A stretch of DNA of 64,000 nucleotides, from contig CM097885.1 in NCBI GenBank assembly GCA_044892525.1, positions 62,248,001-62,312,000 of the forward strand, read 5' to 3'. Positions 1-35,519 of the stretch are shown here, piece by piece. Below the pieces are notes generated by a model. The model saw only the letters and a list, made by a program, of their open reading frames with translations. It did no database searches and was not told the origin of the DNA. How positions within the stretch are numbered: the stretch's first letter is position 1; each line of letters opens with the position of its first letter. The position numbers were made by a program, and so were the translations under genes. Source of the DNA: Schmidtea polychroa (taxonomy: Eukaryota).

Positions 1-3000
1 CACTACTCTCGCTTCGTACCTTTTCCGTTATCTCTTGGTTTATCTTGGTTACTAAGTCATCCACCGTACTCTGATTACTCATCTTTATTCGTCGTTTCTC
101 CTCGTTTGGTAACCATATGGTTATTTCTAATTTCTGCGGTTGCGTTTCTTTTAATCTTCCGTATTTGTGGATCAAATTTATGGTTCTCCAATCGCTCATC
201 CTGAGCAATTCTGTATCTCGTAATCGGCTCATTAGTTCATGCATAGTTGGGGTTCGTTTTGCTATGAGCAAATCCCAGTTGTCTTCAACTTGTTCTTGGA
301 TTTGTTTGATTAGTTTATCTAGATTCCGCCTTAAAGTGCATTGTTTTATTTGTTCCAATTTCAGCTTGATATTGAAATCGTATTCAGCCTTGGCGTCTTT
401 AGCCCATTCATGAACATTAGCTGGTTGCTTCTCTTTATGCAACTTCAATATTTGAGTTTCTCCTGGCCAGATCAATGCATCTATTAGGTGCATGTCTGGT
501 TTGATTTGTTCTCCTTGATATTGATACAGATATTCTTTCTTTCTTGAGTTACCCAAATGTTCTCTTATCCAATCGAAAAGATCGTCTGTAACTGTATTTT
601 TTATCCATATTCTCTCGAGTCCTTTACTCGTTCCGATTTTTATTACGTAGCGTGTTGTCTCCGCTTGTTTCATTTTTTCCATATACTTCTTTATTATCGC
701 TTTCTCCTCACTTGGTATTAAATCTTTTTCGTTTCTTTCCAGTTTCATTATCTTTTGTATGAAGCGTCTGTATGGTATGATGTCAATGAAATCCTGGTTT
801 CTTACCACCACTGGAAGTATTTCTTTTACTTGTTTTATCGCCTCTTCTTTTTCCTTTCTCAGTTTCATCTCGATATTCTCATCTTCACTTTCGCTTGCCA
901 CATCGCTTTCACTTTCATCCTCATCTTCTCCGATCTTTTTCTTTAGTTGTTCGATATTTTCATTTAACTGTAATATTTCTCCACTAAGGCTACTCACATA
1001 ATCCTCCTCGTCATCTGTTGACAATACCTTCTTTGTCGTCCTCATCATGTTAATTCGTAAATTTCTCATTCTTGATACTTTCTTGAGCTTTTTATTCTCA
1101 AATATCGTTAATTCTTCCGATTCTAATTCTTGTACCATTTCATGGGTTAAATGACTAGTTTGTTTCTCGTTTCCGTCATTTATCGCTTCTACTTCTGTTT
1201 TTGTTTTCTCATGTTCTCTTTCGATCTTATCTTTTATCTTTTTCCAAAATATTTTCTGGATTCTCTGATTTCCCTTTAGTGGTGTTGTTGGATTTTCCTT
1301 TTTATCTTCCGTAACCGTTTCTTTCGGCTTCTCTGGTTCGATCATAGGTACAACTCTTGGATTTTTACCATAATTGTAACAATATTGCTCCTTTATCTCT
1401 TTTACCATTCTCATCATATTTATTCGTAATGGTTGTTCTTGTCGCTGCTGAATTCGCTCTCTTTTTATTCTCTCTTCCTCAGCTTGTAGTCTCTGCCATT
1501 CTTGTGCATGTTGTTGTACTTCATAATCATTAAGATTTTCGGTGCTCCTCATCATGCGTATATTCTGAGTTTGTTGTGCTACTGGTTCTTGTCTCGGTCT
1601 CATCATTTGTTGCATCATCTGTTTCATTTGTGAAATTTCTTGCATCACGTTCATTTGCTTTCCTTCACTGGGGTTACTTTGTCGTTGCGGATTAGGTGCA
1701 TAATTATTGTTTCGTTGTGGTGGTCGTTGTTGTTGGCTCCTTTCTCGGCAATCTCTTGAGATGTGACCTGGCTGACCGCAGTTAAAGCATCCTCTCAACT
1801 GGCATATATTTTCCGTGTGTCCTCGTCGTCCACATCTATTACAATTTGCGTTTCGGTAACAATTTCTATCCCAATGTCCTGGTTTACCGCATGTTTGGCA
1901 TTGTTTGTTATCGTTCGTATTTCGTCGATTATTAAAATTATTTCCATTGTTCAGGTTGTTGCGTTCACTGTTATTCCCGTTTGATCGTCCTTGCGGTGGT
2001 TTGAAAATTTGATGCGCACCTGGTATAAACTGATTCATCTTCGGTTCATGATTGTTGTTATCTCCATTTTCCGTTTTCACCGTTGCTGATGCGATTCTTC
2101 CCTCCTCCTGTATGACATTCATTTGTGCCGGGAGGTGTAGTTCGCATCTTGTGGCCCAATCTATGGCCTCTTCTAGTGTTTTACACATCTGACATCCCAC
2201 CGAGGCTCTTACCTCTTCCCGGCGTAGTCCTTCTATGAGTTAACCAATTAGATTTTCCTCCGGCAAGTTTCCGTTCATGGCCTTCTTTGCCAATCTTCGC
2301 AATTCGCTTGCGTATAACGTTATTGATTCATTGGCTCTTTGTTTTCTACTCGCTAATTCTCCTAGGGCTTGATTTATTGGTTTGCTGGCCCCGAATGTTT
2401 TTCTCAAAAATGTTTTGATGCTTTCCCAATTGTCTAATTTCGTATTTCTTTCTTTTGCTTCTAGATACACTTCGAGTGCGCTATCGCACAAAAACAGAGG
2501 CATTCGTTTACTAATTGCTTCCGCTGTCCATCCGCACACATCGATATAGACTTCAAAATTTGTTATGAACGTTGCCAACTTGTTCGCATTCCCGTTAAAC
2601 GGTTCGCCTCTAAATTTTTCTTTATACTCGTCGGTTTTTACCACATTCATCATGACTGGTTCTTGTAACTCTATTGTTTCTTTTAAATTTTCCAGCGGTG
2701 TCGCTAAATTATGGACGGATAATTCTTCGGTTGACCCGGTTAGGTTGTTTGTTATATCGGATAGGCTTTCTCTGCTTCTAGATCGACTAGGGGTGTATCC
2801 GAGGTTTTCTTGGTCAAAGGTTGGTACTTGATTTGTTCTTTTTGCTCCTTGTGATCTTCCTCTTTGCTGTTTTATGGATCGTCCTCTTCTGAGCTGTTCT
2901 AGTTCGTCTCCTGAAATTAATACGTCTCTTGACTTACTTGAGGATCTGAGATTTAGTTTCTCCGTGATTTCTTCTTACGCCTCCTTATCGTCTCTTATGG

Positions 3001-3250: not shown

Positions 3251-3922
3251 CTCGTGTTGCATCTGCTCACACGACTTCATCATTCTTTCTTCAACATTCA
3301 AACACAGACACCGTTTAGGGCCTCTGTTATGCTTCTCTTTATTTCCCCATACAATTTCTCGTGGATTATAGTTACCCATCAACCCATAGTTTTCGTCGAT
3401 TTTAAATTATCTATTTGGGGTAGTAATAATTATCTATATGGTCGTATGAATTATCTATAATTATCATTTATAATATCGATAGGTCGTTCTCAGTTACTGC
3501 TTATCACCCCCCATATTCTCTTAATCCTTTTACGCGGTTCCGCTATTTTACTTAGTCTTCCGTCTCTGTTCCCCTTTACTCGGTTCTACTCTGAACCAAA
3601 AAAAATCAGATTCGTTTATCCGGTTTAAACCAAAAATTCTGTAGACTTTTGTCTACTTACTTGGGATCCCCTTTAATTAATTAATTACCTTCCTTTTTAC
3701 TCGTCATTTATTCCCACTTATTCTCTACTTTTACTATCTCCTCAATTCATTTTCCTTTTCTGATTCTCCTTTTCTACTAAAAGGGTTTTACTTTCATCTT
3801 CTACGAGCTCGTTTAATCCTTTCTAAATTCGACTTCTCGTATCCCAATTCAATTCGTTTCTAGCTAGATTAATATTCTATCTCATTATCAACTTAAATAT
3901 TATCCAATCATTTTCTAGGCCT

Positions 3923-4260
3923 TTACGACTGGCTGGCACTTTTCAACAGCTCAATCTTCTTCCTTCTGACCGGTTGGACTATTCGACAACTCGATCTTAC
4001 GACTGGCTGGCACTATTCAACAGCTCAATCTTCTTCCTTCTGACCGGTTGGACTATTCGACAACTCGATCTTACGACTGGCTGGCACTATTCAACAGCTC
4101 AATCTTCTTCCTTCTGACCGGTTGGACTATTCGACAACTCGATCTTACGACTGGCTGGCACTATTCAACAGCTCAATCTTCTTCCTCTCCAAACTGGCTG
4201 GACTTTTCACAGCTCAGTTCCAATTTCCCTGGCCGGCGGGACTATTCAACAGCTCGACCT
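3923..4260. repeat. 74-bp tandem repeat in the gag 5' leader (about 3.5 copies plus a degenerate tail)
   Basis: The unit TTACGACTGGCTGGCACTATTCAACAGCTCAATCTTCTTCCTTCTGACCGGTTGGACTATTCGACAACTCGATC starts at 3923, 3997, 4071 and 4145. Confidence 0.95.
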
Positions 4261-4346
4261 TAATATCTTCGACTCTGCATGCTTCTATCTTTTCTTTACC
4301 TTTATTCTAGACTGTCATCTCTCCTTTTATTTTTACTTTTTATTTG

Positions 4347-4366
4347 TCGATCTAATCTGTGCCACT
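4347..4366 (-). promoter_or_regulatory. candidate primer-binding site (CA-AG-TGG junction)
   Basis: The minus strand reads ...CATTCTCA|AG|TGGCACAGATTAGATCGAC, the usual LTR-end/spacer/TGG geometry upstream of gag. I could not assign a matching tRNA. Confidence 0.35.
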
Positions 4367-4841
4367 TGAGAATGTTTCCCCTTTCCCCCCTTGCTCAAAA
4401 CGCAAAACGATCGCATTGATCCATTTCTACATTGGTATGGTGATCAGTCATACCGCAGGAACTTTTCAATATTCGCGATGGTACCTCGCCTTACATCTCT
4501 TACTCGGGGTGATCGGTTATCCCTTCCCAACCGGTTTCCGTGTATCGTACCTCCCGAAGGTGGCTCGGTTTATTCCCCCTTTAATCCTATGTTGGGACTA
4601 GCTCCACTTTATTTTATTTGTTCAAATTAAATTTATAGATGCTCTCTCTCCATGATGAAAATTATCATAAAGTTACTGAATTCACAATAAAATGAACACG
4701 CAAAACATTCTATTCATTAGTTGGCTTAAATCACATGCAATATACAAATTTACTAGAAAATTGTTGATACATCAATTAAACATAAAGGATTTAGTCAAAT
4801 CGTCAATCAGATCAATTCTTTCACCGAGTGCTGCTCGCGTG

Positions 4842-5321
4842 TTAACTGAAGTAAATCGTGTGCTTCTCCTTTATTGCACATACACATAAAGAACAATGCG
4901 TTAAACTGACGGCGCATTCGTCGCAATGGCTAAGGTGTCCACAAGGTAGCATTAGAATTCTGGCAGGTCGCGTCTTACAAATGTTACAAGTTCTCAAGGC
5001 CGCTGCTTTTTCTATTATCGAGGTTCGTATTCTCTGAGATAGAGTTTTTACTTGTTCGCGTATTCTCACATATTCGAGGTTCAGAGCGGGGTCGTCGAGT
5101 CGTTGCTGCATCCATTGGTAATGGACAGACAAGTCGGTGTCGGTATTTGTTGACCCCAATCTGTCGGTTAGAAAGTTTTGTTTGGATATCAGCGGTGCGT
5201 TGTGGCGTTGTTGCTCTAGGGTGTCTATTTGTTGCAGTTTTTCTCTTAACGTCTTTATGGAATCGTTTTCTATGTCGACGAACCGGCTTAGTCGTTGTAG
5301 GTGTTGTCGGGCTCCTGACAT
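4842..5321 (-). CDS. coiled-coil plus C-terminal IAP-type RING finger protein (putative E3 ligase, no BIR domain)
   Basis: Intact 159-aa ORF ending CNICKTRPARILMLPCGHLSHCDECAVSLTHCSLCVCAIKEKHTIYFS, a C3HC4 RING at the extreme C-terminus as in IAP/MDM2/RNF34-type ligases. A TTTAG acceptor ends 2 nt before the ATG. Confidence 0.85.
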   Translation of the reverse strand: MSGARQHLQRLSRFVDIENDSIKTLREKLQQIDTLEQQRHNAPLISKQNFLTDRLGSTNTDTDLSVHYQWMQQRLDDPALNLEYVRIREQVKTLSQRIRTSIIEKAAALRTCNICKTRPARILMLPCGHLSHCDECAVSLTHCSLCVCAIKEKHTIYFS

Positions 5322-6283
5322 ATCTAAATAAGTATGTTGTCATTACTCGGTCTCACTTACAAAAATAAAAATAATATTATCGTGTTATAATCAATGTTCG
5401 TTTGGCTTTGTTCGCCATTGTTTCTAGTTTATGTATTTTATTCAATCTTTAATAATTCTTTTTAATTTAATTCATTTAAAATTAAACAAAATTAGTCAAT
5501 TCCCATTTTCTCTTCCCTTCATATTCAATCGCATTCATTCAAACTTATTTAGGTTCGTTTTTGTTCATAGCATGTTCTATTTTACGCAAAGACAGTTCGC
5601 ATCATCATCTTAATACATTATAATATCGATTCATTTCAGTCCCGATTCCCTTTTTTATTATAATTAATTAAATTGTTAGTCTAACACATCGTAATACAAT
5701 AATAGGCAATCAAACAATTCGAAATCAGATCCCGGCTGAGCCCCAAAAATCATGTTGGTATATGCGGGGAAAAAGAAATTTGTTGCACACATCATCATTT
5801 CACATCTCACATACCCTGCATCATTACTCCGCTCAGATACTCCCCATACATACACCAAATGATCATGTACATATTCCCACGCATGAGCCCGTGGTGATAT
5901 TCCACGTTGGTGCTGCTCACACGGGTTGGAAAAGGTTAGCAGGTGAGCCTCTGCCTTAAGACTACTCCTAACCCTTTCTCGATACGGGTTCTACGGTGCC
6001 TCAGAAGGTCTTACCCCGTCCCACATACACAATTCGGTCCGACCCTGGTCCAAGGGGACGACCTTGTATTATCACCTACATTCGACATCATCTTTCCACT
6101 CGTATCAACTTCGATATCTCACCTGTTAAAATCAATCATCAGAAACAATAAAAGATGTATTAACTTATAACAAATCATTACACGCAGAATAATCAAGAAC
6201 GGTTTTACATGTAAACATACAGCATTTATAAACACGCAAGTTCACTTAGGGACCATGCATAGAACAAGGCATCTTTGAATTGA

Positions 6284-7045
6284 TCAATCGAAGGGTTCTC
6301 CATCCGCAAGCATTGCGTCGATATCGACCGGCAGTCGTGGGTTAGAAATGTACTTGATGCCTTCTGCCGGTATTACACGAAAGATTTCCTTTGATGGGAT
6401 GGAATGGCTGGAGGATATTTCTCTTATGGTAGATTGAGCTACAGATAGTGACGCCTCGAGAGCAGCCATCGCATCTCGGCGTTTCTGATTTTTCTCGGCT
6501 CGGGTTGGCCGTTTCCGTTTGCGAGACGACGGGGGATTGTCAGTGTGCGGGGTGACGACGGTTGCCCCCGAAATCGGAGCCAAGATGGGCTCGGTAGGTC
6601 CACCTACCAAGGGTTGAGAACCCGATAAGATTGGAGCTGGAATGGGCGGTAGGCACGATCCATGCCCTTGGCAGCTCGTAGCAGTCGGTTCGGATACTTG
6701 ATGATGAAGAGGGAAAACGTTCATTTTCTCTATGACGGGGAATTCCCGTACCCGCTTGGCGAGTTCTGCCTCCGTATAAACCTTGTGGAGGGCTTCTGAT
6801 TGGGTTTTGATTGTAAGCCGTTGGCATCGGCTTTCCTCCAGCAAGCTATCTCTACAATGTTCTAACCGGAGGATTTTCTTTCGTTCCTCCTTCATTTGTG
6901 GCGGGGAGAACCACGTACCCTCATAGAGGTCAATTCTTTTCTTTAGAGCCCCGATGTATAGATGGAGCTGCGCGATATCTGCGTTTTTATCTGCGCAGGA
7001 GAAACATGGGCGAAGGGTTTTCTCAGCAGTTGTAGGAGTAGTCAT
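6284..7045 (-). CDS. ORF-X copy 1: unknown protein with CxxC, coiled coil, Pro-rich linker and basic motif
   Basis: Intact 253-aa ORF. Homologous to the decayed copies at 14035-14891 and 15890-16407 (shared CFSCADKN, IGALKK, P[P/A]QMKE, EH[C/Y]RDS, QSEALHKVY, NVF motifs). An AG acceptor abuts the ATG. Confidence 0.8.
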   Translation of the reverse strand: MTTPTTAEKTLRPCFSCADKNADIAQLHLYIGALKKRIDLYEGTWFSPPQMKEERKKILRLEHCRDSLLEESRCQRLTIKTQSEALHKVYTEAELAKRVREFPVIEKMNVFPLHHQVSEPTATSCQGHGSCLPPIPAPILSGSQPLVGGPTEPILAPISGATVVTPHTDNPPSSRKRKRPTRAEKNQKRRDAMAALEASLSVAQSTIREISSSHSIPSKEIFRVIPAEGIKYISNPRLPVDIDAMLADGEPFD

Positions 7046-9419
7046 CTAAAGAATGAGAAGTCCTTTATTTACATCATTAAAAATCCTTTCTACTATTTAT
7101 TTTCTTTTTATCGTGAGCTTTATCCTACCACATATGCATACAATCAGGATGGCCCCCCCACATCCATACCTTTGACATCACTTAACTCATCCAAACCGTA
7201 AACCTTCAAATCAACTCATCACATCGTTCGTAATGAAGAGAAAATGAGAACCATCACACGTTATTTCTCTACCCATATTGATATTGTACCTAGGTTCCTG
7301 GGTCGACAGTTATCATCTAATCGCAATAAGTTACTCCTTACCACTAATATATTTTTTCACTTTTATTTATTATGACCTATTGAAGGTGGGTCTACTCCCT
7401 GGTTTTTATGGCTTATTGAGTTATGCCTGCTTTAATTTAAAAGAAGTAGTTCCATACTGTTGATGCACTTTGCGCTGTATTAAGTTAAAACGAATTTGTT
7501 AAAAATTATTATTAGTATTAATTTCCCTCATAAATTATAATTTAATTATTTAAATTTTCGCATTTTCTGTTGTCATAACGACGCATATCGGTATGTAGTG
7601 GTGTACTGGTTTCAGACTCTACCTGATGTGCGCTAATGTGTATTATCTCGTTTTACTCAATTATCGCTGTCCTCTCTTAACAAATCCTAGACATTGTGTC
7701 TGTTAGTGTGCCTTGATCTCGTCGCTTATTTATGCATGCCTACTGACACATTCTACTATGACGCAATGATGATGTCGACTCACTCACGTCCCATGTATTA
7801 GTGGATTTATCTGTGTGTGGGTTTGGGTCTGCTTATCTCAGTTATAACATTTTTAGCAGATGGGCTAGACGGATGGAAGATAGTGAGTCAGGCTTATGGA
7901 AGTAACGATTGCTATGATTTCAAGATTTCCCAAATCTGTTATCGGGTCAAAATGGATTTAACTCCTATCTCTCTCGTGAATGTTGACTATTCTCACAAAC
8001 CTAATCGTCTCATCGATTTGGCGCATGTCGTTCCACAATCGAACCGCTGGAATATTTTATCTACGCTACTTGCCTCTCTGCAATAGTCGTTTCTCGATCA
8101 GATGGAAAATTTATCGATAATTTGTTCGAAATGGTCGATGATAATTTCCTTTAGGACTGAAGTAAGTGCTTATCATTAATTAGAACTCGGCTGTTTACTT
8201 TCCTGTCAGGGCGAACCTTATCGATGACAGTAGCTAATCGAAGGTTGATAACTAAGTCTCCTACTCGTCAAATGACCTATCACCGCGATGGGTTGAATCG
8301 CTAACGTTCTCTTAATTTATCAATTCTTGGAAATACAGAATGCTCCAGATTTTTATCATTCATCAAGAAACGAAAATGGACGTTAGAATTATCAGTGAGG
8401 TTCGAGAATTTCATCACCCTCAAGAATAGTCGGTATTCACATTCTGACGAAAAGAAGTAACTTAGCTCTGAATTGAATATGGCCGAACTCAAACTCGGAT
8501 TAAATCTCGAAAAATGTCGTCGATCTCCTAGAATTTTCGGTCAGTACGTTGTCGGCATCGAAACAGTATCGCTCAGAAGTTTCCTCAATAGAAAGCTTTC
8601 GACGGCTAATTTTATAGATAGCACTCGATGAAAAGATCATTGACTCGATTCGTTTTCTCTCACAGGGTTTCCTCACCCCTCACAACCCACCCAAGGACAG
8701 TACGCATTTCTGCCTACTGCCCTTGGACCGTCGTGAAGGACAACTCGACCCGACTTATCTCAAATCCTTCTCCAATAAATGCACAATCAATAAATTCATA
8801 TTACTGTCAAACAAATATGGGAATAATGAAATTAAAAGAAAAATCAAATAAATAAATGTTTACCTGGCGGCCACGCCATCTGGATTCCGAGTATGATGAC
8901 TCTTACTAACGTAGGTTTTTATACTCCTTTGTAATCATTGTAATACTAATATCCATGTAGACACTTGGCTGGTTCTGTCAATACAATTTCTGGGTATCCG
9001 CATTCATAAGCTCTCTCTGAAATGCATACGTAATTTAGCCGCATCATACCCGAACTCCAAAGGACGTCGTCGCCAGCATCATAGAGAGAAAGCAACATCT
9101 TTTGGTTTTAAATATAGATTTTATTGAAACATAAAACGTCTTTTGATATTAAATTCATAGTAAACATTAAAATTATCATACTAAAATTCAAAACATAATT
9201 TACCAAAATTCTCCGAAGGTGTTAGGATTGAAATCAAAGTTTTGTCAAATTTTTCCTTAGTTAGACTGGTTCTTCTCAACTGGATTCGATCTCGACTATT
9301 ATTTGCCTCTAATTACTATTTGTTATGTCCAAGTATGAATATCGTTCGTAAGTCTGTGCTCGTGAGTGGTTCCTAGTCCTGTAGAGTTTCGGGTTAGAAT
9401 GATAATTTTTAAATAAATT

Positions 9420-9500
9420 TTACCTGTAGAGTTTCGGGTTAGAATGATACTCTACAGAGTTTTGTTGCTCTTTATATATTATTTTCCGTCCAATCAGGAC
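9420..9500 (-). promoter_or_regulatory. LTR-type Pol II promoter (CCAAT, TATA) followed by a splice donor
   Basis: The minus strand reads GATTGG...TATATAAA, then CAG|GTAAAA about 50 nt downstream. The same CCAATCAG/TATA pairing recurs at 10679-10711 and 27590-27623, and a TATA plus donor occurs at 17594-17638. Confidence 0.6.
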
Positions 9501-10494
9501 ACACCTTGCTTGTAATTTTGTTATTTATTATTATTTTATGTTTTTCTTATCGTAGTATATTATATTTTAATGACCCTACCTATTTCTATTATTGTTTTAT
9601 TTATTTTCCTATTTTTTATTATTTTTCTCCTATTTTTCTGTGGTTTTATTGCTATTTTATTGTAACTTCATTTTTTTGTTTTAATTATCCTTATGGATGA
9701 TTTTATTTTTATTTTGTTTTCCTTTAATTTTCATTTGTTTTTCTTAGATTTTGTGCCATTTTATTTTTCCTTTACTGTTATGCTCATTGGGTGCCTTCCT
9801 TTTTGTCTTATTTCCCCTTTACAGGTTTTGTTATTTTATTTAGTTATTCTTGTCTCTTTATGGATGTTTAATTTGTTTCTTCCTATATTTCTCGTAATTT
9901 TTATATGTTTTTATTTTATTTACTCTATCTCTTCCTGGGTTCGTTTTTCCAACACCTTCAGAGCTTGTTCGTTTTTCCAACACCTTCAGAGCTTGGCCCA
10001 ACAATAAGAACCGAGATAGTGTCTTCCTCAGTCACTGAGAAGCATATGCCTTAGCTTCCTGTTAATTTAGGATCCATTACTACAATCTATATACTACTAT
10101 TTCACAAATTTTAAGTCACCTTCAGTGACGGACCCGTGAGGAAGCCCCCACATTACGGCCCGAATCAACTGCGTGATTGAAAAACTCCATGTCCACCGGC
10201 TGAGCTCCGGAGGGCACCTCACACCATGACATGGGGTATCTCAACTCCACGTTTCTCAACAGTCAAAAATATTTAGTTCAATAAATAAAGCATAAAAATC
10301 TGAATAAAAATCATTTATTAGTTCTAATGATATCCAAACATCTAAAACTCTAAATTCATTAAAATTGAAAATGAAGGGATCAAATGCAGAGCCGTTCGTT
10401 TACGATAAAGATTTTAATTACAAATTAACCTTCATAATCATTTTTAACTTAAAAGAAAATTCTAAATAAAAGTTCTTCTTACCAATATTATCGA

Positions 10495-11060
10495 TGTTGA
10501 GGCTGAGTCAAAAATTTATTGGTCGTTTTCTGAAACTGATCTGTTCGATTTCAAATCCTGAATATTTCTCAAATGTCGAATTCTGATGCTAATGATTCCT
10601 TGAGTGATCTCTGTAAGTCGCTGATGGTATCTGTAAAGTGTTTTGAATTAACGGTAAGTTTATGATTTTTGTGTTTGCTTATATAGTAATTTTTGATGTG
10701 TGCGGACCAATCAGAATTGAGTACCGCTTGTTTTCTTAATTTAATTTACTTTTTCCTGTTTTTTGGTTATTTTTCCTTATTTTCTTTATTTCTTTATTTA
10801 TTTTTTTTTATATTTTCTATTTATTTCCTTAATTTCCTCACTATTTATTGAATTTTACATCATTTATTCGTCAACTTATTGTCCTATTTTAATTTTCTTA
10901 TTTTTATTTTTTGTTTTAATTCTTATTTCCTAATTATTGTTTTCCTTATATCCTATTCTATTTTATTCTTAACTTCGTTTATTTTATTTTTATTTTCTTT
11001 AACATCCTATTTTCTTACTTTCCTAATTTTCAAAAATTAAGTTTTCGACTCAGCCCAACA
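10495..11060 (-). mobile_element. solo LTR-like element (~566 bp)
   Basis: Inverted ends TGTTGAGGCTGAGTCAAAA / TTTTCGACTCAGCCCAACA, an A-rich U3-like tract, and CCAAT and TATA boxes. No clear TSD. Confidence 0.6.
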
Positions 11061-11326
11061 TTACTAATGATAGAAGTTAAGATAAAAGAAGAAAAATGAA
11101 TTTGAAAATAAAATAATTTATTCATTATCACACCACCATTTTTCGATAGTTTAAATCTAGCTTATTTTTGGCGATCCTCCAATTCTGACATCAATTACAT
11201 GGGTAATCAAATATAATTCAAATAAATCCCCATTGCCTCCAGATTTCGACTATTTCTTGTTTCTAGTGCCAAGAGCACCAAATCCTTGAGCTCTTCTGGT
11301 TACAGTAATACCATATTGATCAAAGC

Positions 11327-13242
11327 ATGATCAAAAGAAGAAATACATTCATATACATTGTATATCTGTGTTTGATATGCCGGATGAATACTACTATATG
11401 TAAAGAATATAATCTGAAGCGTCATTATCAATCACAGCATGCAGACAAATATTCGAAATATAATGGTGAGTCGAGAATCGTCATACTTGAAAATTTAAAA
11501 AAACAATTTAAGAAGCAAACATCAATTATCCCCCTAGCATGTAAGGCTCAGGATGCATATGTTTATGCTTCTTATGCAGTTGCGAAAGAAATTGCCAAAG
11601 CCAAAAAGCCATTTACTGATGGTGAAATTATTAAGAAGTGTGCAATTAAAATGGTTCAAGCATTTGGAGATGATAAAATGGCAAAACAGTTCGAGTCAGT
11701 TTCTCTTTCTCACCAAACCGTTGCAAGACGAATCTTAAATATGGACACCTTAGTTGAAAAATTAGCCGACATAGTAAAAAATTTTGTATATATTTTTCAA
11801 TTGCGCTTGATGAAAGCACCGACATATCTCATACCAGCCAAATGCTGATTTTTGTACGAACAGTGGATGGTGATTTTAATGTTTCGGAGGAGTTACTGAA
11901 ATTGGCTTCCCTACATTCAACAACAAAAGGTGTAGATATTTATGAGGAACTCAAAAATGTTGTTTGCATGTATGGTGGTTTTGAAAAATGCACTGCCATT
12001 GTAACTGATGGAGGAAAATCAATGGTCGGGAAAAATATAGGACTCGCTGGACTGCTAAAACAAAATGGTATTAATTGTCAAATGTTGCATTGCATTATTC
12101 ACCAGCACGTTTTATGTGGAAACATTATGGGATTAAGTTGCACGATGAGTACAATTATTAAAATAACAAATGCAATAAGAGGCGGAAACCGTGCACTCAT
12201 TCATCGTAAATTCAAACAATTTCTTGAAGATTTTGATGCCCAATATGGTGATCTACTTTTGCATAGCCAAGTTCGCTGGTTAAGTGCAGGGAAATGCCTT
12301 AAAAGATTTTTTCAACTTCGTAAAGAAATTAAACTTTTTCTTATGGAAACAGAATTGGATTCGTCATTTATAGCCTGTTTTAATGAAAAACATTTTTAAT
12401 TTCATTAGCATTTTTAGCAGATATTACCGAATATTTGAATGTTTTGAACAAAAACTTGCAAGGCAAAGACCAAAACATAAGTCATCTGGTAAGCCATATC
12501 ATCGGATTCCGCAATAAGTTACGTTTTCTTCGGTCGCATTTTATTAACAACAATTTGGTGCACTTCGAGTGTTGTTATGAACTTGCTATCGAAATGCAAG
12601 AAATCGGTCAACAATTAAACATGAAAGATTATGTACCCGTGTTGGACAAATTGGTTGAAGATTTTGATGCCAAATTTTCTGATTTTGATGCAATTAAACC
12701 AGAACTAAAATTATTTAATAATCCGACTACCATCGACGTTGAAGAAACCGATATTAAATATCAAATGGAATTATGTGAATTGCAAGCTGACGAATTTTTT
12801 AAATCAAGGCTGGAGACAGGGGTAAATTTATTCAAAATGTTTCCAAACGACAAATATCCAAAATTGCGCGATTTGGGCTTAAAATTAATTTCTATGTTTG
12901 GTAGTACATATATTTGTGAACGAGCATTTTCTGACATGAAATATATCAAATCTTAATATAGAAATTCAATGACCGACAAAACACTAAAAGAAATTTTAAG
13001 AATTTCTTCAACTAAAATTGATATAAATATCGAAGTTCTTGTAGCTGCCCATATAAATAAGCAGTTTTCACATTAATAAATATTATGTTAATATTTTTTT
13101 TCTTTTTTTTCTTGAACTATGAACTAATAAAATACTAAAAAAAATTATAAATGACTTTTAATTAAAATTTATAGTATATGGCCCGCCAAACCTACAAAAA
13201 GATAAAATTGGCACACATGTACAGAAAAGTTATACAGCGCTG
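11327..13242 (+). mobile_element. hAT transposon (Buster/SPIN/GTF2IRD2-like), frameshifted transposase
   Basis: ORFs 11327-11848, 11842-12399 and 12435-12956 contain CKEYNLKRHY, (frameshifted) FSIALDESTD, TDGGKSMVG, HCIIHQ, VRWLS and GSTYICERAFS. The 3' end is ...TATACAGCGCTG at 13242. The 5' TIR was not found. Confidence 0.9.
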
Positions 13243-14034
13243 ATATCCAACAATAAGTTAAATTCATTTACTTATATTACAAGTAAAACTGGAAAGATTT
13301 CAGGTTCATGTATGGAATTAGTGATATGGGTTTTTATTTGACCGGTTCAGATCTTACTACTTGAGTACTTGAATATTATATAGGTTTCTGGAAACATATT
13401 TCTAGACAATTTCTAAGTAGTTGTAAATTGAAGGTTATTATGACTGGCATCGAAATTTATTTCCCGAGAGTTATATTTTATTGATTTTGCGAATTTGCAG
13501 ATATACATTTTTATCTAAGTTTTCTAAAGATTAACCACATTAGCTAGCGTGAATTTGGTGTTTATAATATCCATAAATCAAACAATTGTCAAATTACTTA
13601 TTTCAAAACAACACTAGGGGTGTGTCCTGCTTAAAATCGTGAATAGGGGAAATTATGGTTGACTCAACCCGACTCCTTTTAGACGCCAAGGTGACTATTG
13701 TTATGACTACTCATGTGCCCATGGCGACGACATATGTTGGTACTGCACATAGTAGCTGAGGACCTATGAACAGGTGAGCTTCTGCGTTAAAACTACTCTT
13801 CATAGTTTCTTCATTTACGGGTTCAAGAATGCCGATAGAAGGGCTTACATCCTCATGGACTGGTTCGGTAATTACGTAAAGAATCTTTTGTTAAATCTTG
13901 GTCCAAGGGGTGTGTCCTTTATTCTCATACAGATCGATTAATCCCAAAAAGAAACTCATACGGATCAAATAACTCAAACAAAAATAAGACAATTAACATA
14001 AGGTAAAGTTCTATTTAATACACTGACACTTCCA

Positions 14035-14891
14035 TTATGATCTATCTTTGTACATAACTAAGTTCGATTCGAAGATATTAAAGAAAACTAGAAGTGATGG
14101 AGTTAAGGTTTCTCCAGCGTAACCTTTGTCTGCGATCCAACCCTCGTCATTTCCATCCCGTAAAAGAAACTCAAGGTCCGACATTAATTGGGCATCATAG
14201 GGCCAAGGGGTGGTTGTTGAAGGTATCACATGAAACGAAGGTACTTGCAGAGTCGTCGGCATCGCTGTCAAAGGTGGAACCTTTGGCGTGATCCAGAATA
14301 ACGTAGCTTTTGTGGCTGCCTTTCCGTCGCGTCTGCGGTTCGATTTCTCGGCGCGAGTCAAACGTTTTCTCTTTGGTCGATAGTTGGAGTTGACCTCATT
14401 GGAAGAAATCGGGTTTCCTGAAGGTGGAGTTATAAGTGTGATTGTTTTGATTGGAGCCACACTGGAACCAACATATACAACTTCCGGTGACAGAGGTGAA
14501 AGTTCTGTCCCGTGATTAGCACAAGAAGATTTTGAAACCTGTGGAAGATCCTTGTACATATGGTGTATGGGAAACACATTCGTTTCGTCGAGAACTGGGC
14601 GTTCAGAAATCCGTTTCTTAATTTCGGACTCATTATATATCCGATGGAGGTTTACCGACTGCGACTTTATAGTGATGCGCAGATTGCGGTTCTCCTCTAA
14701 AATACTATCCCGACAGTGCTCGAGTCTTAGCACTTTTCGATTTACTTCCTTCATTTGGGCCGGGGGAAACAATGATCAATCTTCTTTTTTAATGCCCCTA
14801 TCTCCATTTGGCCCTTGTTGATGGTATCGTTTTTGTCCGCACAGGAGAAACACGGCTTTAAATTTGATGTAATTGGGTTTGGTTTAGACAT
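14035..14891 (-). pseudogene. ORF-X copy 2 (frameshift near 14775)
   Basis: From the ATG at 14891: MSKPNPITSNLKPCFSCADKNDTINKGQMEIGALKKKID, then a small deletion shifts into ORF 14035-14772 (PAQMKEVNRKVLRLEHCRDSILEE...RPKRKRLTRAEKSNRRRD). Confidence 0.8.
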
Positions 14892-15889
14892 ATCGCTGAA
14901 AAGAAATGAGGTTATACACCAGCAACTTCTCTACCAAAAATAGAAATCAATTAAATAGACACTGTTCCTTGAGCCACTTTATGCACTGGTGTTGAGAGTT
15001 TATTCGGACTAATGTTTAATACAAAAGAAACCTGACCCGGGGAAGGTGGATGAACCTTTCAATCATAAGTTTAATTATTATCCGAACTTTATCATTATTA
15101 TTTAAAATCATAATCGAATATTATTAAGCGTTCACTACCAATCAATAATTAAAAATCGTTATCAATTATTATTGAAAAAATCGTCATCAATTATTAACTA
15201 AAACCATTATCAATGCTTATTTAAATATCCCTGTCAATTGTGAATCAAAAATCATTTCCCATAACTATTTGAAATTCATTCTCAGTTGCTATTTAGAAAT
15301 CATTATTAATTATTATTTAAAAAATCTCTGTTATCATTAAGTTTATCCTTACTGTTACTCATGGTATTTCGGTAGTATCATTACTCTTTCTGCTGGCCTC
15401 TTCATTTTTGTTAATCTCCATCATTAATTTCGTAATCGCGATTATATTTATCTAAAATTCACGTTACTGACTCACCACTAACATCGTCTTTTTCACCTTA
15501 TTCATTACTAGGATTTAAAATCATTTTCATCATCGCTACTGATGTCATTTTTATCAATAATTATGAACATTAGTATTATTATAGTTATTCCGATGATTAA
15601 AATATGTAAATGTTAACATGGTTCCCTAAATTTCACTAATCTTATCGCCATTCCCGGCCATTGATGCATGTGCCGTTGTTGCCTGTATTAAAATGATTTT
15701 ATGGACAGTGTTGTTATGATTTCTATTACTCAATACTCTGATGTTCGTCATTAATATTTTCCCAGCTGTCTTGCCATCGTCACTCTGGTTGGTATTTTCT
15801 ACTAGCAATTCCTGATTTTGTTTACGTGTTGGGTAATCAATTAGGTAAACAAGCGTCCACTCGCTACCAGGGGATGATGGTCAAATCAA

Positions 15890-16407
15890 AACAAACATGT
15901 ACTATTTAGTCGACCTCAAATCAAGCACCGGAGGAGGGATCGGATTCAAGGTAACGATAGGCCTTGGGACCGCTTGGCTGACTCCAGTGATGCGAACGTC
16001 AGATATCGTGGGAGATGGATGTCGTCCACGCAACTTTTACTGGCCTCATCTCCATATTGATTTGGGTTCGCTGGCTGATCATGGCCCAAAAATACATTGT
16101 GTTCTTTCGAGATTGGTATAGAGGCTATCTTCTTTGTGATCGTTGCCTGCACGTAGACCTTGTGCAGGGCCTCAGACTGCTCCTTGACTAGCAGTTGCAA
16201 CGAGCATCTCGATCAGACTATCGCGATAGTGCTCGGCTCGCGACAACTTCATCCACATTTCTTTCATTTGAGCGGGCGTGAAATATGCCCCTTCGAGATA
16301 GTCGTTCTTCTTCAGCAGTCCTATCTGGGTCTGCAGCGTTTTAATAATCGCGTTCTTATCGGCGCACATGGCCGAAGAAGAGTCGTAGGTGTTGGGGTTT
16401 TCGACAT
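15890..16407 (-). pseudogene. ORF-X copy 3 (two frameshifts, shorter)
   Basis: From the ATG at 16407: MSKTPTPTTLLRPC, a shift to ADKNAIIK...QIGLLKK...TPAQMKE...AEHYRDSLIE, and a shift to LLVKEQSEALHKVY...EHNVF. The 3' boundary is approximate. Confidence 0.75.
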
Positions 16408-17589
16408 TTCTAAAGTAAGTCAGTGGTAATAGCAAATTTATGTAACGAAATTATAGGTAATGAAATTATATAATATCGGATTGCTCTTTATAATCGTCGA
16501 TAATAGATAGAGATAAAGAAGACTAATTCCCCTCACATTCGCACCCGAGAGACCTCGCATTGTTAACGATATCAGCCTTAGGCTCCTTTTACCATAATAA
16601 AAGCATTATTTATCTGAGTTTATATTTTTATATGTTTGGATGAATTATGTGATTAGACCCTTCATAAATGTTTAAATAACGAATAAAATTTACCCTTGAA
16701 ATTATTAAAATAAATTACCTAATTTAATCATTCAAATATTCAAATAAATTAGATAACTTCATCCTTCCTAAATTTTTCATCTAAAATTATATCGTCCAAT
16801 CATTCTTAAAATTTCAAATAAATTACATCCATCAATCATTCAAAAAAATTCAAATAAAACTGTGTCGTTCCATCGCCCTTAAAGATATTCTAATAAAATT
16901 GTATCATTCAATCGCCGTTAAGAATATAAAAAATTTATATCATACAATCAAAAATTTGTGACATGAGCTACTGACAGTCACTCAGGTAGATTATGATGCA
17001 TTTGGTGGTTTGTGCCTTATCGCTTCGTTTCAACACTGGTATTACCTAATTGCCATGTGAAATGGGTGTCTGCGAGTCTAATCCAATGCAAATCAACACG
17101 TCTAATCATTGGAATTTATTGTCATACTCCGGATGTGTGTCGTCCATGATTGCGACTGCAGATAATACGATCTATTCTACAGTACATTTCGCGTTATTTA
17201 CAGGGTCGTCTACGAATTTATCGATGGCATGTAAAAGTACTTCTGGTCGCGGCTGAGTTCTCAAGAATCTCGTGTAGGAGGAGCGTGTTCTTAACTTGGA
17301 TCGATTATCGTTGGATAGAATTTCATTCGACAAGGTGTAAATCCGATGTGCAATAGGGAATTTCCAGATCAAACCAAATTTCAACTATGACTTTCTCTGA
17401 ACTCATTTCGTGAAAATTTAACGTTCGAATGCCATACATAGAGATGATGTCGAAAATTTGTGAACAAATGCATCGCGTATCCTGAAGTAAATTGATTATT
17501 GAATTTCCCGGTTTTCACCAAAACTCTATTCACGAAGCTATTTCCTATAGTCGACCTTGCATGATCAAAGCGCAAAAATTGTAATCTAT

Positions 17590-17960
17590 CTTACCTAAAT
17601 TTTTTGTAAAATTTTTATTTCAATGTCTTGCTTATATAGCTTATTGTGGAATTTGCGGACCGCTCAGAATCGAGGTTCCGCAAAATTAATTAATTTAATT
17701 AAAATTTATATTTTGTAATTTTTCTTGTCTTTTAGGTTTTTCTTAAAATTGTATTAATTTTCTTTATAATTTTTTATATTAATTGCATATTTCTAGTGTC
17801 GTTTTCCTACTTTTATGTGTACTTGATGTTTTTGCTTCCTTTAATTTATTGTTTTAATTCTATGTTTTGTTTTTCCTCTCTTTTATTCAGTTAATATACT
17901 TATTTATATTTATTTTTTAATTTGTTTTTGATTTTTGATGGTATTTTTTGTCGTTTCCTA
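17590..17960 (-). promoter_or_regulatory. LTR-like U3/promoter with canonical splice donor upstream of ORF-X copies 3 and 2
   Basis: An A-rich tract (17700-17960), TATATAA at 17632-17638 and AG|GTAAG at 17594/17595 on the minus strand. Confidence 0.55.
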
Positions 17961-17969
17961 TTGCCTCGT

Positions 17970-20900
17970 TGTGCCAGGATAAAAGTATGAGGATCAATCA
18001 AGATCAGTGTCAATAAATGTGATTGGGTTCAGGATCATTGTCGATAGATAAGAAAACGCAAAGTCACAATTTAAGTCAAAGCTTAAACACATTAAGTTCC
18101 GAGGGGGGGGATCAATCGGTTGCAGGATCGGGATCCAGACAGGTACTGCTTGTGGCACGTATTGGTGGCAGGTCAAGCTTGTGATTAGTTCCGATGGTGG
18201 GGGCCGGTCCTTGGGGTAGTTTCCATCTGCAGCTCGAGCGAGTAACAGGTCCCGGTGCCTGGTCCAGGAGGCGGTTTCCATGTGCCGGTGCCGGTTCGAG
18301 AGTGTGAGAGGTCCCGGTGACAGGTGGCCGATCCTGGAGGCAGTCTGGAGGTTCGGTTCCAGCGAGATGGTTCCGGTGGATGGTTCCGTATTGGCTCTAA
18401 TATAAATTATGGGGCCTGGAATACCTTTCAAAGGGATAGGGCAAAAATATATACTACAATGATAAATAAGATATTGATTAATAATAGTAATAGCGAGTGA
18501 TAATAATGAGCTATAGAAAAAATATATGAAAAATTATATATAAAAATAAATATATGTTGAGAGGTATAAGGATATGGTTATAGGGGGATGGGTTTCTCAT
18601 TGCGATGAATCCTTGTATGTATGTTCCCTATAGATGTTATAGCTGCTCTGAATCGCGGCGGTGCATGCCTTATTCGCGAGTCTCTTAATTTCAGACTTAG
18701 AAAGACCAATTTTCTTTAGGATTGCATCGTTCAGCTTATCCCAAGAACATAAGGTACCTAGTACAAGGGCAGAAAGAGAGGTCTTACATTTATGTAGATG
18801 TCCGATTTCAATGGCGATGTCCTTATATTTTTCGAAGTTTTTTGTCACGAGCATTGTTGAAGTTGGCAGCGGATTCATAGGGCACCTTGATGTCGAGGAG
18901 ATGCAAGTTGCAGTTTCTGCTAGACTGAATGAGGAGGTCTGGTATAAGCTTCGATACCCCGTCCGGGGGCCTTTCTACGTCTACCAGAAAGTTGAGGGAC
19001 AGGAGTATATCAGATACGGTCTGTAGGACATTGGAGTGTTTATTGCGATGGGCGTTGAATTTTGCAGCACAGTGGTTGAAGATATGCGCCTGGGTTTCAG
19101 GGTGTGTGTGGCAGTGTCGACAAGTGGTTGACTTATTGGTCTTAAGTCGATGGAGAGAATAGTTTAGCTTAAGCAGGTTGTTCCTTGCTTTAATAAGAAA
19201 GAGGTATTGGGCATCGGACAGAGTGTCAGTTTGAATGAAAAAGGCCACTGTGCTGCTTTCACTGATTGCTTTTGCAATGTAACCTTGGCATCTCATCCGG
19301 ATCCACCTTTCAGCATGGATCAGGCCAATTATGGAGTGGAGTTCTGAGGACGTGTCATGGATGTTCTCAGTGTCGAAGTAGGTGAGACGTTCGCGATATT
19401 TTACCTCTAGCTGCAGGGAGTTTTCAATGTATTTGATTTTCGCGGAGATATCGTATTTGAGGAGCAGTCTAGTGGACGATTTACAGAATTTTGAAAAGAA
19501 GGTAGGAAATTGTTTAGATGTTTCCCTATTCAGCCACGCCAGGGCAGCATTGAAGTTGCTTTGGCCCCTAGCCTGTGCGAGTTTCGAGGTGACAAGGTTA
19601 CGGAAACTTAGATCGCAGGAGGTGAGGGATCTGATCATGAACGATGCTCTGGATATGGTATTCATCTATCGCCGAAGTGAGTCCCATCCCCCCAATTTTA
19701 TAGAGGCATAAGTGAAATTGTTGTTTAATTGCATAATTTTATCCCCCATCGTGGTTCGCAAAAATGTCTTTAAGTTTTTGGTCAAAGCCCAGGTATTGCG
19801 CGTCCCCTCTCCTAAGGCGTTTCGAGTCTAACGTCATTTGTCTGATTTCGCAGTTTCGGAAAGTGAAGATGAGGCGGGAGTGTATAAAGATCTTGTAGGA
19901 CATTAACTTCTGTGCCGGGTGCAGGTAGGATTGGAAGATAAGTTTTGTGTTGTCAAAGCGTTGTCAAGTCTTTCCTCGATGTTGTGTTTATTTTTGTGCG
20001 CGAAGTCGACGCCGAGATAACGGTAGAAATTTGAGTCGTCGATAACTGGTAATCTTTCGCCATAGAGAGTGACGGGGGTGTGTGTCGAAAATGTTGAGCG
20101 AGAAGTAGCCAGATTTAGATGGTTTAAACCGAAGATTAACCTTTTGTGCCAGTCGCAGTCTCAGCTAGTGCAGCGGTAATGGAGGAGAAGGAGTCGGAGA
20201 TAAAGACAATGTCATCAACATATGCAATGATGCTTATATTGTGTTCGTGAAGAAAGAAAAAGTGTTCGCGTAGTATAGTTCTTAAGATGAAGTCAATCGA
20301 AAGGCAGAAGAGGGTCATAGAGAGTGGGCAACCTCGCTTTACTCCTTTGACAATTGGCACCGAGGTGGACAATTCTTCTTCGCACTCGAAGATGGTGTTG
20401 ACATTGGAATACATATCCATGATGAGGTTGATGGTTTGTTGATGAAGGCTCATGTGTGTCAGAGTGTGCCAGATAAGATCATGGGGTAAGGAGCCAAAAG
20501 CATCAGTGATATCGAGACAAATGATATGGAGTTCCGTTTTATTGCGGACAGAGAAGTCTTTGATGAGGTAAAGAGTTAGGTTATGTTCGACGCAGCCATC
20601 GGGGGTGCCAATGGCTTTTTGGTTAGTGTTAAGTAGGTGACCTTGCCTGATCCAGGACAAGATAGATGATTAAGGACAGAGAAGAAGATACGGTATGCAG
20701 TGTTCATGACAGAGATAGGGTGCCACGAGCTAGCCTCATGGCTCGTTTCATGTTTCCCTTGTTTGAGTATCAGTTTGGTCCGAAAAGTCTTCCAGCTGGG
20801 AGGATATATCGAGGCGGAAAGTACGTTATTACAGATAGCAAGAAGGGGTTCCATATTGGGGCATATCTTTTTCCAGTCGGATAAGGTGATCTTGTCGATG

Positions 20901-32658: not shown

Positions 32659-32739
32659 TCTCCATTTTTTTCAATTTTGACCCCATTTTTACTAATAATA
32701 AATTATAAAAGTTTTTATTTTAATAAAATTTTTATTATT

Positions 32740-33218: not shown

Positions 33219-33249
33219 TTATTAAATTGTATATTTACTACCTCCTACT

Positions 33250-34656: not shown

Positions 34657-34671
34657 TTTTTAATAAAAAAA

Positions 34672-35480: not shown

Positions 35481-35519
35481 TAAAGAAAAACTTGTTTTAA
35501 ACTTGTTTTTAAAATATTA

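What the first reader, a model, noticed from the sequence alone, without database searches (positions are those of the whole stretch)
6284..16407. ORF-X: unrecognised three-member protein family with a Rev/Tat-like basic motif
Seen: three divergent minus-strand paralogues (6284-7045 intact; 14035-14891 and about 15890-16407 frameshifted) share CFSCADKN, a coiled coil with PAQMKE/EHCRDS/QSEALHKVY, and NVF. Copies 1 and 2 also keep a variable Pro/Ser/Thr linker and KRKRxTRAEKxxxRRD. The blockwise conservation implies past purifying selection. I recognise no known domain. Established: complex retroviruses express small regulatory proteins (Rev, Rec, Tat) from spliced RNAs, using arginine-rich NLS/RNA-binding motifs and oligomerisation helices. 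Inference: ORF-X may be a nuclear RNA-export or transactivator-like factor, or an anti-silencing factor, of the element.
Basis: partly seen in the sequence, partly recalled or inferred. Interest (0 to 1): 0.75.

Follow-up and report, generated by a model that had tools for sequence, protein, structure and literature searches.

The report
Rev-like protein inside retrotransposon LTR
A giant retrovirus-like jumping gene carries, inside its own terminal repeat, an unknown protein with an arginine-rich tail next to a conserved RNA hairpin, a pairing that resembles the Rev/RRE export switch of HIV, though no experiment has yet shown that the two bind.

Summary
The three ORF-X copies are real and under purifying selection. 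They are not a host gene family: 15 of 17 database relatives are fused to 15 different unrelated domains, as a dispersed repeat is in gene models. Copy 1 lies inside a candidate 4.25-kb 5' LTR (10003-5753) of a Burro-like Ty3/gypsy element, between the promoter and a tRNA-Pro-type primer site. All three start codons follow a splice acceptor (background 24 of 1171). The protein is predicted to be a parallel coiled-coil dimer with an arginine-rich helix, more Rev-like in relatives. New here: copies 1 and 2 are each followed by a two-hairpin RNA element; in hairpin 1, 12 of 13 substitutions are compensatory. Best reading (about 45%): a Rev/RRE-like pair, of independent origin, that gets the intron-retaining genomic RNA out of the nucleus. 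Not shown: expression, splicing, binding, an export signal (motif scan at chance level). Main rival: the hairpins are a Gag-read packaging or priming signal and ORF-X does something else.

The parts
5753..10003 (-). Candidate 5' LTR (LTR1, about 4.25 kb) of a Burro-like Ty3/gypsy element
   Evidence: TGTTGG at 10003 and CCAACA at 5758-5753; primer-site match directly behind; promoter inside. The partner LTR is outside the window, so the ends are inferred; each hexamer occurs 6 times in 2500-18300.
9470..10003 (-). A-rich U3-like segment ending in ATTGG (9494) and TATATAA (9478)
   Evidence: 57% A; the same layout recurs at 11060-10685 and about 17975-17632
9378..9449 (-). Exact 27-nt direct repeat (9449-9423, 9404-9378) framing a 45-nt GT..AG mini-intron; candidate transcription start and R region
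   Evidence: starts 29 nt after the TATA box; the only such unit of 20 nt or more at 308 AGGT sites of the window
8799..8863 (-). Second donor-like site (8863) and acceptor-like site (8805-8804) before an ATG at 8799; decayed frame behind it
   Evidence: this ATG did not pass the acceptor filter; two fragments scanned have no Pfam match
6284..7045 (-). ORF-X copy 1, open, 253 aa: CxxC, coiled coil 14-89, conserved block to 115, Pro/Ser/Thr linker, basic motif 175-191, helix 182-213; splice acceptor directly before the ATG
6010..6057 (-). 5' edge of the conserved non-coding module: CCCCTTGGACCA block (6057-6046) and donor-like GTAAG (6014-6010)
   Evidence: Both recur at 13910 and 13848; related contigs break off at 6065 and 6016 in run X8
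5933..5974 (-). RNA hairpin 1: 15 pairs, a G/G mismatch, a U/CAC loop, a 6-nt apical loop
   Evidence: Same structure when each copy is folded alone; 12 of 13 substitutions in 6 compensatory pairs;
5876..5925 (-). RNA hairpin 2
   Evidence: Two double-sided and one single-sided change among 10 pairs counted, none broken
5729..5745 (-). Primer-binding site of tRNA-Pro type
   Evidence: Only match in the window to the MLV PBS-Pro printed in PMC4587795 (3 mismatches; 7 of 100 shuffles give one); most related contigs carry one more base behind 5740, which removes one mismatch
4842..5321 (-). Internal accessory ORF, 159 aa, coiled coil plus IAP-type RING; acceptor before its ATG
   Evidence: PF13920 E 1.8e-8; cIAP/XIAP RING chains E 1e-8
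3923..4186 (.). 74-bp tandem repeat, 3.6 copies, in the leader before gag
2..2974 (-). Start of the polyprotein: Retrotrans_gag, one in-frame stop at 2242-2240, then 746 open codons with three CCHC knuckles, a long charged region and ubiquitin-like segments; runs off the window
14035..14891 (-). ORF-X copy 2, one frame change near 14775; acceptor 4 nt before the ATG
15890..16407 (-). ORF-X copy 3, several frame changes, no basic motif, no hairpin module behind it; acceptor 2 nt before the ATG
13706..13910 (-). Second copy of the non-coding module (block 13910, GTAAG 13848, hairpin 1 13805-13764, hairpin 2 13755-13706)
17594..17975 (-). A-rich segment, TATA box (17638) and donor-like site (17594) of a second long LTR-like unit that holds copies 3 and 2
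   Evidence: no exon-copy repeat found here
10190..11060 (-). Short LTR-like unit with the same promoter type and no ORF-X
   Evidence: TGTTGG at 11060, ATTGG 10711, TATA 10685; weak primer-site likeness at 10209, 5 mismatches of 17

Best explanation
ORF-X is an accessory protein encoded inside the LTR of Burro-like giant Ty3/gypsy elements, and works like Rev/Rex/Rec without being related to them. Steps: (1) shown in DNA: the LTR promoter is followed by donors and by acceptors placed just before the ATGs of ORF-X and the RING ORF. (2) Inferred: ORF-X is translated from a spliced RNA. (3) Inferred by logic: the RNA that is reverse-transcribed must keep these introns, the hairpins and the primer site, otherwise they would have vanished from the LTR, so the genomic RNA is intron-retaining and needs help to leave the nucleus unspliced. 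(4) Predicted: ORF-X forms a parallel coiled-coil dimer that presents two arginine-rich helices on flexible linkers. (5) Shown by covariation: a sense-strand RNA structure lies behind a conserved donor-like site, so RNAs spliced from that site would lose it. (6) Inferred: the basic helices bind the mismatch and bulge of hairpin 1 and license export or block splicing of the genomic RNA.
For: Hairpin 1: 15 of 15 pairs kept, 6 double-sided changes, 0 of 200000 random placements reach 6; slid controls give 0 such pairs; folds as RNA on the sense strand (-16.5/-12.2 kcal/mol) but weakly on the other strand (-9.0/-6.1) or as DNA. It keeps a G/G mismatch and an asymmetric loop; Rev binds a groove widened by G-G and G-A pairs and a bulged U (PMC4488727, passages). 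Basic motif in 11 of 17 relatives by pattern, a 12th by eye; many read R/K-N-R-R-R-R, like Rev Arg39-Asn40-Arg41-44; Pfam REV E 7e-4, sub-threshold, in 2 of 13 members. AlphaFold2 makes 182-213 a confident helix. Dimer score 0.61, best of 3 controls 0.01; runs agree in at least 98% of contacts, pLDDT at least 82; mark reached by 21 of 30 solved pairs and 0 of 23 single chains (eukaryotes 17 of 29, animals 7 of 16, 0 of 30 single chains). Acceptors at 3 of 3 ORF-X starts against 24 of 1171 minus-strand ATGs. In runs X2, X5 and X8 the summed depth of contigs laid at 80% likeness peaks on the ORF-X core, the hairpins and the promoter, 10-90 times above adjacent bins. Response elements inside LTRs are known: RxRE (PMC3390767), RcRE (PMC11379458).
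Against: No binding, localisation or export data. Leucine-rich export-signal patterns occur at the shuffled rate (copy 1: 4 hits, 2.9 expected). None of the 15 joints shown matches a predicted intron (20 not shown), and no run is on record as RNA. Covariation rests on two sequences. Hairpins 120-230 nt before a primer site are where packaging and priming structures usually sit (own knowledge). The window's own motif is Lys-rich and reads as a plain NLS. Copy 3 and 5 of 17 relatives lack the motif; two of them (P0013, P0018) keep both flanks. An element in the LTR would also be present in ORF-X mRNA if that RNA ends downstream of it. Contig depth is no copy number. Parallel coiled coils are common among solved structures, so the dimer pass may come from likeness.
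Confidence: 0.45

Rival explanations
1. The hairpins are an ordinary U5 packaging, dimerisation or primer-activation structure read by Gag and reverse transcriptase (or a host-read constitutive transport element); ORF-X is a separate nuclear accessory factor, such as an anti-silencing or host-modulating coiled-coil protein, whose basic motif is only an NLS.
For: Hairpins lie just before the primer site. The element carries other host-modulating cargo (RING; apoptosis and ubiquitin domains in Burro, PMC6431247), and Burro is PIWI-repressed (PMC8532177 passages). No export signal found. A Rec-like protein can persist while a constitutive element does the export (PMC11379458).
Against: The RNR4-type motif in relatives is richer in arginine than an NLS needs; the conserved mismatch, bulge and loop letters suggest a specific protein site; the short LTR-like unit at 11060 has neither ORF-X nor the hairpins, though it may be truncated.
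Confidence: 0.3
2. ORF-X binds the hairpins, but to steer RNA processing or replication rather than export: masking the donor at 6014, controlling poly(A) choice, bridging two genomes as a dimer, or helping a minus-strand cDNA of about 3.7 kb to reach the transcription start.
For: Conserved donor-like GTAAG 40 nt before hairpin 1 in both copies; LTR donors and structure control poly(A) in foamy virus and RxRE bridges the poly(A) signal in HTLV-1 (PMC3694450 passages); two tethered basic helices could link two RNAs; primer site and inferred start are 3.7 kb apart.
Against: A poly(A) hexamer before the module is not constant (AATACA in copy 1, AATAAA in copy 2, neither in the loose ends at 6065 in run X8). 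No direct data.
Confidence: 0.17
3. Tat-like transactivator acting through a promoter-proximal hairpin made from a second start site just upstream of the module.
For: The conserved module begins sharply near 6065 and has the size of a usual R-U5; TATA-like hexamers lie 110-170 nt upstream.
Against: Their spacing is not conserved; the ATTGG/TATA promoter with the exon-copy repeat at 9449 is the clearer start.
Confidence: 0.06
4. A host gene family that happens to lie among transposons.
For: All 17 relatives are eukaryotic-type gene models, most with host domains.
Against: The attached domain differs in 15 of 15 cases and lies on either side; the ORF is one exon between LTR signals; two of three copies are decayed.
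Confidence: 0.02

Closest known systems
Burro / GYPSM1 giant gypsy-like LTR elements of planarians (PMC6431247 section 7, read whole)
   Same: Gag with three CCHC knuckles, long charged region, ubiquitin-like segment in one polyprotein, upstream accessory ORF, tandem repeat, long LTR (about 5 kb for the two together above the 25-kb interior in that text), decayed state as described for Dugesia japonica.
   Different: That section names no LTR-encoded protein, no basic-motif protein and no RNA element. BCL2, env, PR, RT and IN lie outside the window, and no MATH or BIR was detected in the part seen.
HIV-1 Rev / RRE
   Same: Helical arginine-rich motif, oligomerisation, structured RNA with a G-G mismatch and bulge, expression from a spliced RNA (inferred).
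   Different: No sequence or fold homology; long parallel coiled coil instead of a helix-turn-helix; motif tethered by a variable linker; both gene and RNA element in the LTR; export signal not found.
HTLV-1 Rex / RxRE and HERV-K Rec / RcRE
   Same: Response element inside the LTR.
   Different: Their genes lie outside the LTR; their elements are in U3/R, here downstream of the inferred R and just before the primer site; host group is Retroviridae, here Ty3/gypsy.
MMTV Sag and lentiviral Nef (recalled, no call)
   Same: Protein coded within LTR sequence and made from a spliced RNA.
   Different: They lie in U3, upstream of the promoter; ORF-X lies downstream of the promoter. Different functions.

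Membership tests
Ty3/gypsy LTR element, Burro-like | Retrotrans_gag followed by CCHC knuckles (three in S. mediterranea) | tested here: met
   PF03732 E 1.3e-8; PF00098 E 3e-9; three CCHC in the translation
Ty3/gypsy LTR element, Burro-like | Ubiquitin/SUMO-like motif inside the polyprotein after Gag | tested here: inconclusive
   PI3K_rbd E 7e-4 and UN_NPL4 E 0.07, both below cut-off (that both are ubiquitin-like folds is recalled); single-sequence model too poor (pLDDT 39)
Ty3/gypsy LTR element, Burro-like | BCL2, env, PR-RT-RH-IN in one 4800-5100 aa ORF; total length above 30 kb | not testable with these tools
   The polyprotein runs off the window and no genome is held
Ty3/gypsy LTR element, Burro-like | LTR with TG..CA ends followed by a tRNA primer site | tested here: met
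   CCAACA ends 7 nt before the primer site, longer than usual; second LTR and target duplication not testable
Rev family (PF00424) | Sequence homology at Pfam's curated cut-off | tested here: not met
   0 families for copy 1; best relative 19.1 bits against 22
Rev/Rex/Rec-like export factors (functional class) | Arginine-rich NLS/RNA-binding motif | tested here: met
   As sequence only; binding itself untested
Rev/Rex/Rec-like export factors (functional class) | Self-association | tested here: inconclusive
   Model supports a dimer, 0.61 against 0.01; prediction only
Rev/Rex/Rec-like export factors (functional class) | Leucine-rich CRM1 export signal | tested here: inconclusive
   Pattern hits at chance level; a class-1a-like match at the same place in P0007 and P0012, a class-1d-like match at 193 in copy 1 (classes recalled)
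Rev/Rex/Rec-like export factors (functional class) | Structured cis-acting RNA element in the same genome | tested here: met
   Covarying hairpins; that it answers to ORF-X is untested; no Rfam family
Rev/Rex/Rec-like export factors (functional class) | Made from spliced RNA; promotes export of unspliced RNA | tested here: inconclusive
   DNA signals present; no splice joint seen in contigs; export not testable here
Tat/TAR-like | Hairpin at the very 5' end of the transcript | tested here: not met
   Hairpins are about 3.5 kb from the inferred start at 9449, unless a second start exists

The most novel reading that the evidence does not exclude
Planarian-type giant Ty3/gypsy elements have independently evolved a complete Rev/RRE-like switch, with gene and RNA target both packed into a multi-kilobase U5, so that every LTR, including the many solo LTRs in host introns, can supply the factor in trans; a short exon-copy mini-intron at the start site serves as the R region, which implies a strong-stop cDNA of about 3.7 kb.
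Probability: 0.3. Interest if true: 0.88.

Novelty: new variant of a known kind. Interest (0 to 1): 0.72.

Why it matters
Protein-dependent export of unspliced RNA is a mark of complex vertebrate retroviruses; my searches found no report of it in Ty3/gypsy elements nor of an ORF within Burro LTRs. If true it is a convergent invention in an invertebrate lineage, with a compact, directly testable protein-RNA pair. Because the gene sits in a high-copy LTR it could also affect host transcripts, and it already corrupts gene models: 15 database proteins are host genes fused to it.

Tried and rejected
Word-index search with copy 1: none of 501 candidates significant. Protein atlas: no hit at 0.9 or more for copy 1, none usable for P0007 1-246. 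Foldseek on the model: 0 matches at E 0.001 in viral and PDB libraries. PDB sequences: 0 for the family profile and for a 49-aa basic segment. Viral and metagenome contigs: no relative (94 and 510 pattern matches, none confirmed); hairpin pattern 0 in metagenomes. Rfam over 1-25000: one weak chance-level row elsewhere. Whole 330-350-nt module is not more stable than shuffles (z -0.36 and +0.50); only local windows are (best z -4.8 and -3.1, chosen as best of many). The two-sequence RNA model finds no third copy. I first took a TGGCG motif near 8878 for the primer site and dropped it when the tRNA-Pro-type site and LTR-like ends appeared. Reading the module as a second coding exon was dropped: indels between copies break the frame and the stems covary. 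The 6 viral contigs with the primer-site 16-mer held no tRNA gene, so the host tRNA was not seen. No RNA holder listed; X7 and X8 are only guessed to be RNA and X8 covers the whole stretch like DNA. No similarity between RING ORF and ORF-X, nor between the upstream halves of the two long LTR-like units beyond the promoter. The automated global alignment of the two 3' ends failed. The end of the hAT insertion was not found. Grohme et al. 2018 is not held.
Full report
OBSERVATION. Copy 1 is an open frame of 253 codons at 7045-6284 on the minus strand. Searching the window with it recovers copy 2 (14891-14035, E 4e-46) and copy 3 (16407 to about 15900, E 2e-21) and nothing else; a profile of 13 family members finds the same five pieces and no fourth copy. 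The pieces are 39-60% identical in pairs. Silent sites are saturated while replacement differences are 0.24 per site in the core and 0.30-0.48 elsewhere, so the protein was conserved for a long time.

SETTING. The window is AT-rich, repeat-rich eukaryotic DNA; no whole genome is held. Downstream of copy 1 on the same strand lie a 159-aa ORF ending in an IAP-type RING, a 74-bp tandem array and a Gag polyprotein with three CCHC knuckles that stays open for 746 codons after one stop and leaves the window. Its last 250 residues give sub-threshold hits to PI3K_rbd and UN_NPL4. This matches the start of the Burro/GYPSM1 elements of planarians as described in PMC6431247 (section 7 read whole). An earlier, unchecked note of this scan reports a full Burro element in the same genome (e1-7879936). 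The organism is therefore probably a planarian; this is inference.

RELATIVES. An exhaustive search of 1.84 billion representatives gave 11 proteins at E 0.001 or better; profile searches added 3 and 3 (the second scored only 8000 candidates). None has a useful name (10 of the 11 looked up). Fifteen of the 17 carry an unrelated domain, a different one each time (transporter, ABC, subtilase, actin, phosphatase, hAT transposase and others), before or after the ORF-X part. That is how a dispersed repeat inside introns ends up in automatic gene models. The shared core spans a GTW-x-x-P break and a long helix with invariant P48, E71, R73, R76, Q82, P112, H115. Eleven of 17 carry a basic motif by pattern, one more by eye, five do not.

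ORF-X LIES IN THE LTR. The only match in the window to the MLV proline primer site printed in PMC4587795 (passages) is at 5745-5730, 3 mismatches, 7 of 100 shuffles giving one; in related contigs nearly all depth has one more base behind 5740 (217,415 of 220,519 in X2; 46,856 of 48,136 in X5), which improves the match. CCAACA ends 7 nt before it and TGTTGG opens an A-rich segment at 10003. Inside, ATTGG and TATATAA lie at 9494 and 9478. Twenty-nine bases after the TATA box begins an exact 27-nt repeat that frames a 45-nt GT..AG unit, unique among 308 AGGT sites of the window. I looked for this after reading earlier notes on 'self-regenerating' LTR introns in other genomes; those notes are unchecked and one of them judged such a unit an ordinary variable repeat (e1-7588909). 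If the repeat marks the start and R, ORF-X sits in a 3.6-kb U5. Two more units share the promoter type (11060-10685, 17975-17632); the second long one holds copies 3 and 2 in tandem, and the mini-intron repeat was not found in either. The LTR call rests on one copy: the partner LTR is outside the window, the terminal hexamers are not rare, and the 7-nt gap is long.

SPLICING SIGNALS. All three ORF-X start codons have a pyrimidine tract and YAG within 0-4 nt, against 24 of 1171 minus-strand ATGs; the RING ORF has one too. Donor-like sites follow the TATA boxes at 9423, 8863 and 17594. An acceptor-like tract also lies at 3234-3233 before gag (by eye). No splice was observed: none of the 15 joints shown fits (20 were not shown), and no run is on record as RNA.

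THE RNA ELEMENT. Behind copies 1 and 2 about 330 nt are conserved at DNA level (local score 103, best of 30 shuffles 44), with frame-breaking indels. Both fold a hairpin of the same shape. Taken ungapped over 42 nt, each copy alone gives the same 15-pair structure; 13 positions differ, 12 of them as 6 compensatory pairs; random placement of 13 changes never reached 6 in 200,000 trials and kept all pairs in 0.025% (the window was chosen after seeing both copies). Over both hairpins 46 of 46 cells pair, with 6 double-sided changes among 23 pairs, and sliding the partners by 1-3 columns gives none. Three G-U pairs never vary and the fold is much weaker on the other strand or with DNA parameters, so it is a sense-strand RNA structure. 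Rfam has nothing like it. In three large runs the summed depth of contigs laid at 80% likeness is high on the hairpin bin (X2 255,838; X5 30,021; X8 1,008) and the ORF-X core bin (308,459; 36,705; 1,604) and low in the bins next to them (12,783 and 9,256; 2,336 and 412; 86 and 42). The tool warns that this is no copy number; I read it only as a sign that many diverged relatives keep these parts. X7 covers 16 of 30 bins and is too thin to use.

THE PROTEIN. AlphaFold2 with 13 sequences gives confident helices 17-41, 48-89, 92-101 and 182-213, a disordered linker, and pTM 0.37. No fold match was significant. Two copies of residues 10-118 fold as a parallel coiled coil over 14-89: score 0.61, best control 0.01, runs agreeing in at least 98% of contacts, pLDDT at least 82; the mark was reached by 21 of 30 solved pairs and 0 of 23 single chains, on animals by 7 of 16, and a pass may reflect likeness to solved coiled coils. 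C14 and C17 lie at the interface, so two CxxC could share a metal (inference; relatives lack the pair). The basic helix in many relatives reads R/K-N-R-R-R-R-E-R, like Rev Arg39-Asn40-Arg41-44 (PMC4488727, passages); the window's copies are more lysine-rich. Export-signal patterns are at chance level.

MECHANISM. The template of reverse transcription must contain the long introns, the hairpins and the primer site, or they would have been lost from the LTR. An intron-retaining genomic RNA needs either a host-read element or its own factor. A dimeric arginine-rich protein coded beside a covarying hairpin with a G/G mismatch and a bulge, placed behind a conserved donor-like site, fits the second. 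I give 45% to Rev-like export or splice suppression, 17% to other uses of the same protein-RNA pair, 30% to unrelated roles for the two, 6% to a Tat-like role, 2% to a host gene. Shown: ORF, selection, repeat nature, covariation, DNA signals. Predicted: dimer. Inferred: LTR limits, splicing, binding, export.

COMPARISON AND NOVELTY. It is not a member of the Rev family (Pfam cut-off not met). It may work like Rev, Rex or Rec, whose defining parts (basic domain, multimerisation, export signal, structured element in the LTR for Rex and Rec) I took from passages of PMC3390767 and PMC11379458. Searches for such a system in gypsy elements or for LTR-coded ORFs gave no relevant paper (exact-phrase searches are narrow; of the hits I read passages of PMC11599104 only). 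Burro searches led to PMC6431247 and to passages of PMC8532177, PMC11410931 and PMC13238120, none of which mentions an LTR ORF. Grohme et al. 2018 with its supplements and the Repbase entry were not available and may already annotate this ORF.

VERDICT. A real, undescribed accessory protein family and a real, undescribed structured RNA, both inside the LTR of Burro-like elements; their functional link is the open, testable point. New variant of a known kind; interest 0.72.

Noticed in passing
window 9378-9449 (-): Exon-copy mini-intron layout (repeat-CAG, GT, 45 nt, repeat-CAG) at the inferred start site; earlier notes of this scan describe it mostly in fungal LTRs, here it is in an animal-type element.
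   Followed up: partly
window 5745-9449: If the start site and primer site are right, minus-strand strong-stop DNA would be about 3.7 kb, far longer than usual (own knowledge).
   Followed up: no
window 4300-4493: A further stretch of the leader before gag has high contig depth in all four runs: candidate conserved packaging or regulatory sequence, not folded here.
   Followed up: no
window 11309-12956 (+): Broken transposase with a Spin-doc zinc finger (PF18658), hAT-like by recall, inserted between the second and third LTR-like units.
   Followed up: partly
window 18000-22900 (-): Decayed non-LTR retrotransposon with RVT_1 and zf-RVT and strong strand skew; it cuts the 5' end of the third LTR-like unit.
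   Followed up: no
window 23560-24974 (+): Broken DNA transposase with DUF659.
   Followed up: no
window 30266-38099: Long inverted arms (30266-31145 against 36432-38099, 89-100% complementary) around ORFs that look Polinton-like by eye (ATPase-like 34765-35421); integrase-chromo-like remnant at 39825-40139 (Chromo E 0.003).
   Followed up: no
window 50189-50797 (-): Single-frame 202-aa ORF with a weak eIF4E match (PF01652 E 4e-5, below cut-off).
   Followed up: no
window 46855-47859 (+): 334-aa open frame without a significant Pfam or NCBIfam match.
   Followed up: no
P0002-P0018: Fifteen public protein models are host or transposon genes fused to ORF-X: an annotation artefact worth masking.
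   Followed up: yes
window 15089-15323: Degenerate 24-bp tandem array between copies 3 and 2.
   Followed up: no
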